A DNA stretch of 64,000 nt from Escherichia coli O157:H7. GTDB lineage: Bacteria > Pseudomonadota > Gammaproteobacteria > Enterobacterales > Enterobacteriaceae. Made by a program: the position numbers. Below, piece by piece: positions 55,601 through 58,600 of this stretch. How positions within the stretch are numbered: the first letter of the stretch is position 1; every line of letters starts with the position of its first letter. Location: NCBI RefSeq assembly GCF_013167455.1, contig NZ_CP038328.1; one strand, given 5' to 3'.

Positions 55601-58600
55601 TCGGCTGGTGAAGGATGTCGATGATTTTGTTGCGTCAGCGGTTGTTTTGTATGACCAGATGAATCGCGGCGGCCCGGCAGGGAATGCTGTGGTGATGCAC
55701 TAAAAGCACGGTGTTCGGGGGTTTTATGAGCAGCAAGCTTCATGGTCTTGTCTGGGAAGGGTGCGCCTTCACCGGCATGATCTTATCCAGGGTGGCGGTT
55801 ATGGCCCGTCTTGCAGACTACAGCAATGACGAGGGCGTGTCATGGCCTGCCATTGAAACTATCCGGCGTCAGATCGGTGCAAGAAGTGAATCCACAGTGA
55901 AATCGGCTATTGCAGAACTGGCGAAAGAGGGCTGGCTGACGAAGGAAGAGCGTAAGGTCGGTGGGCGTAATGTAAGCAATATCTATCGGCTTAATGTGGA
56001 AAAACTCGAAGCAGCTGCTGCGGCGGCGCGTGAGTCATATAAACCGAAAAGAAAAATTAGCCCGGCAAAAAATGACCCGTTAACAGTTGCCCCGTCAAAT
56101 ATTGCCCCCTCAACGGTTGACCCGTCAAATTTTGATGGATCAACTGTTGATAACAAACTGCCGATTAGGGGGGCGATGATTGACCCCGATCCGTCAGTAT
56201 TAAAACCTGATCCGTCAGATAAAAGATCTTCTTGTCCGGACGCTTCGCAACCGGACCCGCAGACGGCTGAACAGAATTTTTTAACCCGACACCCTGACGC
56301 GGTTGTGTTCAGTGCGAAAAAACGCCAGTGGGGAAGTCAGGAAGATTTGGTGTGCGCACAGTGGATCTGGGGACGAATCGTGAGTCTTTACGAGCAGGCG
56401 GCCAGCGATGATGGCGAGATCACGAGACCGAAAGAACCCAACTGGACTGCATGGGCCAATGACGTGCGGACAATGCGGATGCTGGATGGCAGAACTCACA
56501 GACAAATTTGTGAAATGTTTGGGCGTCTCCAGCGGGATTCGTTCTGGGTAAAAAACATCATGAGTCCGGCAAAACTCCGGGAAAAATGGGATGAACTGGT
56601 TATCCGCCTGGGGCGTTCGCCCGCGCAGCGTTGCGTGAATCACATTTCTGAACCGGACACTGAAATACCGCCGGGATTCAGGGGGTGACGTGTCATGAAA
56701 AACATTGCGGCAGTTGGGGTTCTTGAACGTATTCGCAGACTTGCACCACAGGGGGCGGTTCCACCGTACCGGACGGTGGAGGAGTGGCGGGAATGGCAAC
56801 TTGCTGAAGGACGAAAACGCAGCGAGGAGATTAACCGCCTGAATCATCAGGTGCGGGTTGAAAAAATCCTGAACCGTGCGGGCATCCAGCCGCTTCACAG
56901 GAAGTGCTCATTCGGGAACTACCGGGTGCAGAACGACGGTCAGCGCCATGCTCTGAGCCAGGCGAAATCCATTGCCGATGAATTGATGACCGGATGTACA
57001 AACTTCGTGTTCAGCGGTAAACCTGGTACCGGTAAAAATCACCTGGCAGCAGCGATTGGCAATCGGCTGATGGCGAAGGGGAGAAGCGTGATTATCGTCA
57101 CCGTGTCCGATGTCATGAGCGTGTTGCATGACGGCTACGACAACGGCCAGTCCGGGGAAAAATTTTTACAGGAGCTTTGTGGAGTTGACCTTCTGGTCCT
57201 TGATGAAATTGGCATGCAGCGGGATACGCGCAACGAGCAGGTCACGCTGAACCAGATAGTCGACCGCAGAACGGCTTCGATGCGTAGTGTCGGAATGCTG
57301 ACGAACCTGAATCACGCAGCGATGAGCACACTCCTCGGAGATCGGGTGATGGACCGTATGACCATGAATGGTGGTCGTTGGGTGAATTTTAACTGGGAGA
57401 GCTGGCGGTCAAACGTTGGACGTCAGGGTATGTGAGAATTTTTGACGAGGTAAATTTTCGATGGAAACTGTATTGCATGCACTGAAAGCGATGGGAAAAG
57501 CCAATTCTGTTGAACTGGCGGCGCGGCTTGATATCAGCCGTGAAGAAGTTCTTAACGAACTGTGGGAACTCAAAAAAATGGCGTTGTTGATAAAACGGGT
57601 CACACCTGGTTTCTGGCTGTCGAAGGTGAAGCCGGGGTAACCGAAGGGCAGGCACTACAACCTGAAGCGCCGGATGTGGTAACCGAAGAGGTCGCTCCAA
57701 AAGTTACCGCAGACATGATGGTTGAGTTTATCGGTCAGGATGGTGCTAAAACGTGTGAGGAACTGGCGGGTAAGTTCGGCGTCAGTACTCGCAAGGTTGC
57801 TTCCACGCTGGCGGTGGTAACCGCAACGGGGCGGCTGGCACGCGTTAATCAGAACGGTAAATTTCGTTACTGCATGTCGGGGGGTAATTTACCAGCAGAT
57901 CCGAAAGCCGCGCCGGTAACGAAAAATGATGGTAAGGCCTTTCCTCAGCCAGCAGGTGCTGCGTTACCAGTCCGGGAAGCCGCAACACAGGAAGAAATTA
58001 AAACAGAAACTGTGGCGGACATTGTGCAGCCGTTGCCATCGTTTACCGAAACGCAAGCAGATGAGCTGATTTTTCCGTCCCTGCGCAGGGCAAACCTGGC
58101 GCTGCGCAGGGCGAAAAGTGATGTTCAGAAGTGGGAGCGAGTCTGCGCCGCGCTGCGGGAGCTGAACAAGCACCGGGATATTGTTCGACAGATTACTGAT
58201 TCTTCCCGCCGTGTTGTATCGGAAAAGTGATAGCCGGAGGCGCTTATGGCGAAACCTTTTACACACGAACAGCGTGAAGAACTGAAGGCCCGAATTATCG
58301 GGCTGGTACGCAAAAATGAACGCATGACGATATCACAACTGGAGAGAGCGACGGGAGCAGGCTGGCATTCAGTCAGACGTTGCCTTGTGGATGTACTGGC
58401 TTGTGGCGATTTATACATGCCCGGTAAATACGGTGTTTTTACATCAGAACAGGTGTATCGCGTATGGCGTAAGGCAGCGGAGAAAGCAACCGACCAGACA
58501 TTGATTCGAAAGTTACCAGACGGAGAAATACGCCGCTACGACAGACAACAGAACATAATCTGTGGCGAGTGCCGGAAGAGTGAAGTTATGCTGCGTGTAC

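What the first reader, a model, noticed from the sequence alone, without database searches (positions are those of the whole stretch)
56075..56200. Origin-like iterons inside the replication initiator gene
Five tandem 15-bp units ending in TTG, then two gatccgtcag repeats, lie within the O-like ORF and encode its P/S/T-rich linker. This mirrors ori-lambda inside gene O and suggests a functional or recently functional origin.
Basis: partly seen in the sequence, partly recalled or inferred. Interest (0 to 1): 0.4.

Follow-up and report, generated by a model that had tools for sequence, protein, structure and literature searches.

The report
Prophage replication origin inside initiator gene
The repeats are real and are almost certainly the replication origin of the defective E. 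coli O157:H7 prophage CP-933P/Sp12, lying inside its own initiator gene as in phage lambda: an ordinary arrangement for this phage group, though this version seems not to have been described.

Summary
Six 15-bp-phased units (56061-56150; core TCAA-N3-TTGA) and two exact GATCCGTCAG boxes (56188, 56209) lie inside an intact O-like initiator gene (55726-56688). A DnaC-like loader gene follows (56695-57435). The prophage is CP-933P/Sp12 of E. coli O157:H7.

- The protein's C-terminal domain is homologous to lambda O (34% identity, E 2e-25). The array starts at gene nt 336, against nt 349 for the lambda iterons.
- All 14 non-redundant homologues of the N-terminal winged-helix domain carry a 15-bp array and 2-3 GATCC[G/A]-type boxes at the same place, including viable phages SfIV, phiP27, YeP1, phiNP and LLS. 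This holds whatever C-domain follows.
- Synonymous sites are constrained. Third-position diversity is 0.222 in the N-domain, 0.073 in the array and 0.020 in the box region. Serine is TCA in 63% of linker codons against 15% elsewhere.
- Genes with a different N-domain but the same C-domain carry different repeats with a 23-bp period, read in all three frames.

So this is a DNA element, not just a peptide repeat. It is a new member of a known kind (origin inside a lambdoid initiator gene). Origin activity is untested; Sp12 did not replicate in published induction experiments. Interest is modest.

The parts
55726..56688 (+). O-like replication initiator gene (320 aa plus stop). It consists of an N-terminal winged-helix domain, a disordered linker, a lambda-O-like C-domain and a short tail.
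   Evidence: ORF list. PHROG 391 'replication initiation O-like', E 3.6e-114. Pfam HTH_36 on residues 25-71. Annotated as WP_000095668.1 in the identical O157:H7 record.
55726..56037 (+). N-terminal winged-helix DNA-binding domain (aa 1-104). It is the presumed iteron reader.
   Evidence: AlphaFold2 model: helices plus a beta-hairpin wing at residues 71-89, block pLDDT 68-88. Foldseek gives generic winged-helix matches (ArsR/MarR/PadR types, DnaD N-domain 2v79), probability about 1, target TM 0.5-0.6. Normal protein-level selection: diversity at codon position 3 is about 10 times that at positions 1-2.
56061..56150 (.). Iteron array: six units phased at 15 bp, starting at 56061, 56076, 56091, 56106, 56121 and 56136. 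The core is TCAA-N3-TTGA (family core TCA-N5-TGA). The first two units are degenerate.
   Evidence: for reality and statistics. for presence in all homologues. for constraint at synonymous sites.
56090..56090 (.). Strain-specific A-to-C change in the right half-site of unit 2 (TTGAC to TTGCC; Asp to Ala).
   Evidence: It is the only difference from the compared O157:H7 PV15-279 copy (one of the 99.9% hits) over 55700-56700. It is C in 1 of 36 related sequences.
56170..56184 (.). Solitary, degenerate seventh unit (GGGGCGATGATTGAC) just upstream of the first box. Several relatives have a good unit here, such as GGGTCAATGGTTGAC.
   Evidence: Codon-level comparison of 14 homologues.
56182..56235 (.). 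GATC-box region. It holds two exact GATCCGTCAG boxes (56188-56197 and 56209-56218), A+T-rich spacers and three GATC sites (56188, 56209, 56225). It is the candidate unwinding or regulatory element and occupies the position of lambda's A+T-rich region.
   Evidence: Boxes are present 2-3 times in all 14 homologues at spacings of 12, 18, 21 or 24 bp. This region has the lowest diversity in the gene, with position-3 diversity 0.020. 56196-56235 is tied as the most A+T-rich 40 bp of the gene, at 67.5%. The BLASTP alignment to lambda O begins here.
56221..56221 (.). Mosaic junction. To the right of this point the gene is about 87-91% identical to genes that have an unrelated N-domain and unrelated repeats.
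   Evidence: Megablast hits H70-H80 begin at query base 522. Protein alignment.
56182..56625 (+). Region homologous to lambda O residues 145-277. The folded helical C-domain is aa 183-296 (56272-56613).
   Evidence: BLASTP: 34% identity over 148 aa, E 2e-25. Block pLDDT is mostly 69-86 over residues 201-290.
56623..56685 (+). C-terminal tail (...EPDTEIPPGFRG) resembling the tail of primosomal protein DnaT.
   Evidence: phmmer against PDB sequences: DnaT chains 2ru8, 6aep and 9zbt, E 0.01-0.03. The tail is shared with Rac YdaU.
56695..57435 (+). DnaC-like (IstB-type AAA+) helicase-loader gene, intact.
   Evidence: Pfam IstB_IS21, E 1.5e-19. PHROG 50 'DnaC-like helicase loader', E 1.2e-81.
54979..55703 (+). 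Upstream genes on the same strand: ydaS (Cro-like, 54979-55281) and ydaT (CII-like, 55278-55703). They are transcribed from PR933P.
   Evidence: Their function was characterised in PMC8630535.

Best explanation
The segment 56061-56235 is the replication origin of the prophage's lambda-style replication module, embedded in the linker-coding part of its initiator gene.

Proposed mechanism:
1. When the PaaR2 repressor is off, rightward transcription from PR933P expresses ydaS, ydaT, the O-like initiator and the DnaC-like loader. The gene order is shown; co-transcription of the last two genes is inferred.
2. The initiator's N-terminal winged-helix domain binds the dyad-symmetric TCAA-N3-TTGA units, which are spaced every 15 bp, and builds a lambda 'O-some'-like complex. 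This is inferred from dyad symmetry, co-inheritance with the N-domain and DNA-level conservation. Binding is probably as dimers.
3. The neighbouring GATC-box region (two GATCCGTCAG boxes, each an iteron left half-site fused to a Dam site, with A+T-rich spacers) is the likely site of strand opening. It may also be under Dam/SeqA control. This is inferred from its position, composition and extreme conservation.
4. The lambda-O-like C-terminal domain then brings in host DnaB through the phage DnaC-like loader. This is inferred from homology and gene neighbourhood.

The peptide encoded by the origin is a disordered linker whose sequence is largely dictated by the DNA motif: TCA gives Ser and GAn gives Asp or Glu.

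In this copy the initiator, loader and most units are intact. The prophage has a broken integrase, so firing would give in-situ replication rather than a free phage genome.
For: Reality and significance of the repeats.

Gene identity: PHROG O-like initiator, HTH_36, and a C-domain homologous to lambda O at E 2e-25.

Position: the array begins at gene nt 336, against nt 349 for the annotated lambda iterons.

Conservation in homologues: a 15-bp array sits at the same place in all 14 non-redundant N-domain relatives (45-100% identity), including the viable phages SfIV, phiP27, YeP1, phiNP and LLS, and regardless of the C-domain that follows.

DNA-level constraint:
- Ser codons in the linker are TCA in 106 of 167 cases, against 43 of 293 elsewhere. 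Conserved Ser columns of the N-domain use mixed codons.
- Unit position 12 is a third codon position. It is T in 58 of 64 units although eight different amino acids are encoded there.
- Among 37 close relatives, third-position diversity is 0.222 in the N-domain, 0.073 in the array and 0.020 in the box region. Core positions vary less than non-core positions (0.040 against 0.085, p 0.02).

Module behaviour: genes with an unrelated N-domain but the same C-domain carry five different palindromic repeats at spacings of 23, 23, 23 and 24 bp. These are read in all three frames (SIRSKC, PSGQND, EEAKMT), so they can only be DNA elements. The junction lies at 56221, just right of the boxes.

Linker disorder.

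[quoted passage not shown] Distantly related O-like proteins each have their own intragenic iterons; phage L has six 11-bp repeats (PMC8022706).
Against: - There is no experimental evidence of origin activity, or of initiator binding, for this module or any close relative.
- Sp12, the Sakai copy of this prophage, showed no circularisation, replication or packaging with or without mitomycin C (PMC2669165).
- The A+T-rich element is weak: 57-67% A+T here against 80% in lambda.
- The 15-bp period is a multiple of three, so for this array alone the frame argument is unavailable. Unit indels show that slippage also shapes it.
- No isolated phage among 50,697 records carries this exact module at more than 60% amino-acid identity.
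- The array also has strong single-strand hairpin potential (z -4 to -6 in five of six homologues), which an mRNA-level explanation could use.
- The diversity and codon statistics are not corrected for shared ancestry.
Confidence: 0.8

Rival explanations
1. It is the same origin, but already dead in this copy. The element derives from a real origin, yet in CP-933P/Sp12 it no longer fires and survives only because the prophage is young or because the gene has another use.
For: - Sp12 shows no replication after induction. Its integrase is a frameshifted fragment, and two downstream genes (DUF1627 and DUF551) are frameshifted.
- The window's strain carries a fresh half-site mutation at 56090. A second half-site change (gene nt 380, TTGAC to TTGCC) is shared with 13 of 36 relatives.
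- This exact module is found in no isolated phage.
Against: - The initiator and loader ORFs are intact.
- Four units keep the full TCAA-N3-TTG core (three end in TTGA), and both boxes are perfect.
- In lambda, two iterons next to the A+T-rich region suffice in vitro (cited in PMC7466680).
- The lack of replication in Sakai can be explained by a repressor that does not react to mitomycin C (PMC8630535).
- Strong conservation of the array and boxes across 37 relatives argues for continuing selection.
Confidence: 0.3
2. It is a cis-acting DNA or RNA element with a job other than initiation. Examples are autoregulatory or copy-control binding sites for the initiator, sites used to exclude related phages, or an mRNA hairpin that controls translation or stability of the initiator message.
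For: - Synonymous-site constraint shows only that the nucleic acid matters, not what for.
- The array folds far better than shuffled sequence as RNA (z -6.0 here; -4.0 to -5.8 in four homologues).
- Extra copies of lambda's origin are known to interfere with phage growth (PMC3349717 and PMC4488673, listed).
Against: - The position, the partner domains and the homology to lambda O all match an origin.
- These viable phages have no other annotated initiator or origin next to the gene.
- Hairpin potential follows automatically from any row of dyad-symmetric sites. One homologue lacks it (z -1.8).
- The most variable position of unit 6 (gene nt 420) changes without any compensating change in its would-be partner at nt 390.
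- No Rfam family matches.
Confidence: 0.12
3. It is only a peptide repeat: a Pro/Ser/Asp-rich flexible linker that grew by replication slippage, with no function at the DNA level.
For: - The period is five codons and the peptide pattern [P/G/A]-S-x-x-[D/E] is conserved.
- The stretch is predicted to be disordered.
- Whole-unit insertions and deletions occur among relatives.
Against: - Serine is almost always TCA.
- A third codon position is nearly invariant under eight different amino acids.
- Synonymous diversity is 3 to 11 times lower than in the flanking N-domain.
- Units are dyad-symmetric.
- The sister module's repeats have a 23-bp period and are read in three frames.
Confidence: 0.04

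Closest known systems
ori-lambda inside gene O of phage lambda (and the six-iteron version in Stx phages 933W and P27)
   Same: - The origin lies in the middle of the initiator gene, between the DNA-binding N-domain and the C-domain.
- It starts about 340-350 nt into the gene.
- It consists of several dyad-symmetric repeats followed by an A+T-richer stretch, and it encodes a flexible linker.
- The C-domain of the initiator is homologous (34% identity).
- Gene order is cro-like, cII-like, initiator, then helicase-delivery gene.
   Different: - The N-domain belongs to another Pfam family (HTH_36, not Phage_rep_O).
- Units are 11-13 bp dyads every 15 bp, rather than 18-bp iterons every 20-24 bp.
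- The A+T-rich element is weak (67.5% against 80%) and is built around conserved GATC-containing boxes.
- The partner gene is a DnaC-like AAA+ loader rather than P.
Inferred origins inside gene 18 of Salmonella phages P22 and L
   Same: An O-like initiator carries its own family-specific repeats within the coding region. Phage L has six imprecise repeats of a short 11-bp sequence, inferred to be the origin by the same reasoning (PMC8022706).
   Different: The repeat sequences are different and the partner is a DnaB-type helicase. I made no direct sequence comparison with those phages.
Rac prophage replication module (ydaS-ydaT-ydaU-ydaV) with its origin oriJ
   Same: - The gene order is the same, and a DnaC-like loader (YdaV) follows the putative initiator.
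- YdaU shares the C-terminal ...IPPGFRG tail.
- YdaU contains its own repeats, ATGTTCAAACA in direct and inverted copies.
- Rac is reported to possess an active origin, oriJ (PMC3945230).
   Different: - The YdaU N-domain is DUF1376 and most of the protein is unrelated.
- I could not find a paper that places oriJ at the sequence level, so the link between oriJ and the ydaU repeats is my inference.
Iteron origins of theta plasmids (pSC101, R6K, P1 oriR) and oriC-type GATC clusters
   Same: Repeated initiator-binding sites lie next to an unwinding region. From my own knowledge, clustered Dam sites in or near the unwinding region are a feature of P1 oriR and oriC.
   Different: - Here the element lies inside the initiator's coding sequence.
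- Units are dyads rather than about 19-22-bp direct repeats on one helical face.
- There is no enrichment of DnaA boxes.
- The initiator is not a RepA/pi-type protein.

Membership tests
Lambdoid origin embedded in the initiator (O-type) gene | Lies within the initiator ORF, between the N-terminal DNA-binding domain and the C-terminal domain. | tested here: met
   The array covers gene nt 336-425 and the boxes nt 463-493 of a 963-nt ORF. The folded domains are aa 1-104 and 183-296. Lambda's iterons start at gene nt 349.
Lambdoid origin embedded in the initiator (O-type) gene | Several repeated, dyad-symmetric candidate initiator-binding sites (iterons), beyond chance. | tested here: met
   There are six phased units. 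The lag-15 score is the maximum of the 64-kb window. Three consecutive exact TCAANNNTTGA sites occur against an expectation of 1.5 for the whole window.
Lambdoid origin embedded in the initiator (O-type) gene | Repeats are inherited together with the N-terminal (specificity) domain and change when that domain changes. | tested here: met
   Arrays of the same type occur in all 14 N-domain relatives, whatever the C-domain. An unrelated N-domain with the same C-domain carries unrelated 23-bp repeats, with the junction at 56221.
Lambdoid origin embedded in the initiator (O-type) gene | Sequence is constrained as DNA, independently of the encoded protein. | tested here: met
   Ser is TCA in 63% of linker codons against 15% elsewhere. 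A third codon position is invariant under eight amino acids. Position-3 diversity is 0.073 (array) and 0.020 (boxes) against 0.222 in the N-domain.
Lambdoid origin embedded in the initiator (O-type) gene | Adjacent A+T-rich DNA-unwinding region. | tested here: inconclusive
   56196-56235 is tied as the most A+T-rich 40 bp in the gene, but reaches only 67.5% against 80% in lambda. In seven of 14 homologues the box region is the A+T maximum, at 65-72%.
Lambdoid origin embedded in the initiator (O-type) gene | Initiator is homologous to lambda O. | tested here: inconclusive
   The C-domain is homologous (E 2e-25). The N-domain is not: it is HTH_36, against Phage_rep_O in lambda, and gives no BLASTP alignment.
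Lambdoid origin embedded in the initiator (O-type) gene | Initiator protein binds the repeats. | not testable with these tools
   This needs a gel-shift or footprinting assay with purified protein.
Lambdoid origin embedded in the initiator (O-type) gene | Segment supports initiator-dependent autonomous replication. | not testable with these tools
   No assay was found in the searched literature. Sp12 itself did not replicate on induction.
Plasmid-type iteron origin (RepA/pi class) | Direct repeats of about 17-22 bp phased near two helical turns, DnaA boxes nearby, and an origin outside the rep coding sequence. | tested here: not met
   The units are dyads with a 15-bp period. DnaA-box-like sites are not enriched: 59 found against 54.7 expected in the window. 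The element is intragenic.
Protein-only tandem repeat (low-complexity linker) | Conservation at the amino-acid level with free synonymous variation, and a period that is a multiple of three in all relatives. | tested here: not met
   Synonymous sites are the most conserved ones. The sister module has a 23-bp period.

The most novel reading that the evidence does not exclude
This is a distinct and very widespread class of lambdoid origin. Its initiators are of the HTH_36 type and read short TCA-N5-TGA dyads packed every 15 bp, so that neighbouring sites lie on nearly opposite faces of the helix.

Strand opening would be governed by a conserved set of Dam-site boxes (GATCCGTCA) rather than by a strongly A+T-rich tract. 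That would tie firing to Dam methylation and SeqA.

In CP-933P the origin would still fire in the subpopulation where PR933P is switched on, which is the bistability reported in PMC8630535. With a broken integrase, this would locally over-replicate the neighbouring chromosome.
Probability: 0.15. Interest if true: 0.5.

Novelty: new member of a known kind. Interest (0 to 1): 0.33.

Why it matters
It assigns a cis-acting function to a stretch annotated only as part of a 'helix-turn-helix domain-containing protein' gene. That gene is present at 80% coverage or more in 1514 of 5426 complete E. coli genomes.

It defines the likely origin and initiator-specificity module of CP-933P/Sp12, and of viable relatives such as the Shigella serotype-converting phages SfII and SfIV and phage phiP27.

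It gives concrete sites to mutate: the TCA/TGA cores and the GATC boxes.

It also warns that this linker cannot be treated as neutral sequence in evolutionary or recoding work.

It does not change the general picture of lambdoid replication.

Tried and rejected
- DnaA boxes: TTATNCACA with one mismatch gave 59 hits against 54.7 expected in the window. Only two fall near the element (55995 and 56145), so there is no evidence for DnaA involvement.
- Promoter and terminator scan of 54400-57600: nothing inside the gene and fewer hits than in shuffles.
- Rfam at a permissive threshold over 54900-57500: no match.
- GATC density: four sites in 100 bp ties the window maximum but is not unique, since 86 window positions reach it. 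The argument for the GATC sites therefore rests on their conservation in homologues, not on density.
- RNA folding: z-scores are strongly negative. I judged this an automatic consequence of rows of dyads. It is kept only as a minor rival.
- PDB sequence search: only a weak match of the last 21 residues to DnaT. A recent DnaT structure paper does not assign a role to that tail.
- Foldseek: only generic winged-helix matches.
- Literature on oriJ: the Potrykus 2000 paper is not held. A whole-word search for 'oriJ' returned papers that cite an author named Orij. PMC10899753 turned out to be irrelevant.
- I did not determine whether the replication-competent Sakai prophages with DnaC-type loaders (Sp4, Sp10) carry this same module.
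Full report
WHERE WE ARE. The 1-kb segment around the finding is 100% identical to E. 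coli O157:H7 chromosomes. The annotated copy places it in a lambdoid prophage next to ynfA. That prophage has a frameshifted integrase fragment and two frameshifted downstream genes (DUF1627 and DUF551). The literature identifies the prophage as CP-933P of strain EDL933, identical to Sp12 of strain Sakai. Its immunity region (paaR2-paaA2-parE2 facing ydaS-ydaT) has been characterised as a CI/Cro/CII analogue (PMC8630535). The local gene order on the + strand is:
- ydaS (Cro-like), 54979-55281
- ydaT (CII-like), 55278-55703
- an O-like initiator, 55726-56688
- a DnaC-like loader, 56695-57435

Tandem Repeats Finder gives a period-15 array of five copies at 56061-56135 and a period-30 array of three copies reaching 56150. 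In register there are six units, starting at 56061, 56076, 56091, 56106, 56121 and 56136:

CCCGGCAAAAAATGA / CCCGTTAACAGTTGC / CCCGTCAAATATTGC / CCCCTCAACGGTTGA / CCCGTCAAATTTTGA / TGGATCAACTGTTGA

Each unit contains the dyad TCAA-N3-TTGA. Three of the six exact matches to that dyad in the whole window are consecutive here; the expectation for the whole window is 1.5, and no shuffle reached six. The lag-15 self-match score at 56061 is the highest in the 64-kb window: 50 of 75, against a mean of 19.8 and sd of 4.2. Two exact GATCCGTCAG boxes follow at 56188 and 56209. They are the only exact copies in the window.

THE GENE IS A LAMBDA-O RELATIVE WITH A DIFFERENT DNA-BINDING DOMAIN. PHROGs classifies the protein as 'replication initiation O-like' (E 3.6e-114). 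Residues 153-300 align with lambda O residues 145-277 at 34% identity (E 2e-25). The N-terminal part is Pfam HTH_36, whereas lambda O is Phage_rep_O. AlphaFold2 gives four parts:
- a winged-helix N-domain, aa 1-104
- a disordered stretch, aa 108-182
- a helical C-domain, aa 183-296
- a disordered tail

Foldseek finds only generic winged-helix relatives. The array starts at gene nt 336; the annotated lambda iterons start at nt 349 of gene O. The alignment to lambda O starts exactly where the boxes begin. The boxes therefore occupy the place of lambda's A+T-rich tract.

THE REPEATS ARE PRESENT IN EVERY HOMOLOGUE. I collected relatives from three sources: complete E. coli genomes, isolated phages and IMG/VR viral contigs. 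After reduction to 14 N-domain sequences that are less than 93% identical to each other (45-100% identical to the query), every one has a period-15 array at the same place. The set includes the viable phages SfIV, phiP27, YeP1, phiNP and LLS. Consensus sequences differ by lineage: CCGTCAAATATTGAC here, CCGTCAAAATCTGAC in the SfIV group and GGGTCAAAATTTGAG in another group. All share TCA-N5-TGA. Copy number varies by whole units. The array is kept whether the C-domain is lambda-O-like, Phg_2220_C or something else. It is also kept whether or not a DnaC-like gene follows. All 14 also keep two or three GATCC[G/A]-type boxes (mostly GATCCGTCA), at spacings of 12, 18, 21 or 24 bp, separated by A+T-rich spacers.

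THE CONSTRAINT IS ON THE DNA. Four lines of evidence agree.
1. Serine codons in the linker are TCA in 106 of 167 cases, against 43 of 293 in the rest of the same genes. In the window's own gene the figures are 7 of 10 against 1 of 18. Conserved serine columns of the N-domain use mixed codons across the same sequences.
2. In 64 distinct units, position 12 is a third codon position. It is T in 58 units although the codon specifies eight different amino acids. The information profile follows the dyad, not the codon phase.
3. Among 37 close relatives, the N-domain shows the usual signature of protein-level selection: diversity is 0.023, 0.022 and 0.222 at codon positions 1, 2 and 3. In the array, third-position diversity falls to 0.073, and in the box region to 0.020. 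Both flanks are far more diverse. Core positions vary less than non-core positions (0.040 against 0.085).
4. Genes that share this C-domain at about 87-91% nucleotide identity but have an unrelated N-domain carry five different palindromic repeats (consensus CATCGGGTCAAAATGGCCCGATG) at spacings of 23, 23, 23 and 24 bp. The same DNA motif is therefore translated in all three frames (SIRSKC, PSGQND, EEAKMT). The homology breakpoint is at window 56221, immediately right of the second box.

Together these show that the linker region of this gene family houses a DNA element that belongs to the N-terminal domain as one exchangeable module. That is the classical behaviour of lambdoid origins and their initiators. 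Two caveats apply. These statistics are not corrected for shared ancestry. For this particular array, the 15-bp period does not by itself exclude a peptide repeat.

MECHANISM. This section is inferred except where stated. The sequence of events is:
1. Derepression of PR933P expresses the initiator and loader.
2. The winged-helix domain binds the dyads, probably as dimers, and forms an O-some-like complex.
3. The neighbouring box region opens. Each box is the left half of an iteron (CCGTCA) fused to a Dam site, and the spacers are A+T-rich.
4. The lambda-O-like C-domain, together with the DnaC-like loader, delivers host DnaB.

It is established that lambdoid origins consist of iterons plus an A+T-rich tract in the middle of gene O, and that two iterons next to that tract suffice in vitro (PMC7466680). 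It is also established practice to infer origins from family-specific repeats inside O-like genes. Phage L gene 18, with six 11-bp repeats, is an example (PMC8022706).

WEAK POINTS.
- The A+T-rich element is modest: the best 40 bp reach 67.5%, against 80% in lambda.
- DnaA boxes are not enriched.
- No experiment shows binding or origin activity for this module.
- Sp12 showed no circularisation, replication or packaging in Sakai (PMC2669165). Its repressor is reported as not reactive to mitomycin C and its integrase is broken, so that result does not test the origin itself.
- This exact module is absent from 50,697 isolated-phage records at more than 60% identity, although it is in 1514 of 5426 complete E. 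coli genomes.
- The strain in the window carries one private change, A to C at 56090, in the right half-site of unit 2. It is the only difference from the compared O157:H7 PV15-279 copy over 1 kb. This is compatible with relaxed constraint in a defective prophage, but one mutation proves nothing.

RIVALS.
- Pure peptide repeat: contradicted by the synonymous-site data.
- Cis element with another role (autoregulation, exclusion or an mRNA hairpin): not excluded. The array folds well as RNA (z -4 to -6 in five of six homologues). That follows from any row of dyads, one homologue lacks it, and the most variable array position changes without compensation.
- Dead relic: a question about activity rather than identity. 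It remains open.

VERDICT. The element is a new member of a known kind: an origin embedded in a lambdoid initiator gene. Its particular features are short dyads every 15 bp, an HTH_36-type reader, conserved GATC boxes and a DnaC-like partner. I found no description of this version in the searched literature. Interest is modest.

Noticed in passing
L006 1846-1961 (also L007 and L008); the equivalent position in the window is 56070-56185: A sister version of the initiator gene has an unrelated N-domain with no Pfam match. It carries five 23-bp-period palindromic repeats, CATCGGGTCAAAATGGCCCGATG, read in all three frames. They are followed by TACAGAGAATA repeats with two GATC sites. The central TCAAAA also occurs in the lambda iteron (CCCTCAAAACGAGGG).
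   Followed up: partly
L002 5505-5580 (E. coli K-12 Rac prophage, inside ydaU): ydaU contains direct and inverted copies of ATGTTCAAACA at the matching position in the gene. These are candidate iterons of the Rac origin oriJ. I found no paper that places oriJ at the sequence level.
   Followed up: partly
window 56623-56685: The last 21 residues of the initiator (...EPDTEIPPGFRG) weakly match the C-terminal tail of primosomal protein DnaT (E about 0.01). The tail is shared with Rac YdaU. This probably explains the 'primosomal protein I' labels on relatives. No role for this tail is stated in the DnaT structure paper I checked.
   Followed up: partly
window 56090: A single A-to-C change (Asp to Ala; TTGAC to TTGCC in unit 2) is the only difference from the compared O157:H7 PV15-279 copy over 55700-56700. 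Only two listed strains are 100% identical to the window over this stretch (17B6-2 and FRIK1989).
   Followed up: yes
window 54018-54944 (- strand): This is the three-gene paaR2-paaA2-parE2 locus (repressor plus ParE-type toxin-antitoxin), facing ydaS-ydaT. It has already been characterised as a bistable immunity switch of CP-933P (PMC8630535).
   Followed up: partly
window 57461-58230 and 58698-59281: Two genes downstream of the loader (DUF1627 and DUF551) are annotated as frameshifted in the identical record. The integrase at the prophage end is a frameshifted fragment. This fits a decaying prophage whose replication genes are still intact.
   Followed up: no
window 56055-56155, and the arrays of L009, L010, L012 and L086: Taken as a whole, the array has strong hairpin or cruciform potential (z -4.0 to -6.0 against shuffles). 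One homologue, L081, does not (z -1.8).
   Followed up: partly
L016 1738-1801 (phage Min27 gene O): Another O-like gene, with a more distant HTH-type N-domain, has 2.9 copies of a 24-bp G+C-rich palindromic repeat (GGTGGGGCAGGAGCTGCCCAGG) after its N-domain. This further supports 'one N-domain type, one repeat type'.
   Followed up: no
L003, L004, L007, L008, L009, L010 (genes downstream of the initiator): Many relatives, including viable phage SfIV, have no DnaC-like or P-like gene after the initiator. The lambda-O-like C-domain may therefore engage the host helicase system directly in those phages.
   Followed up: no
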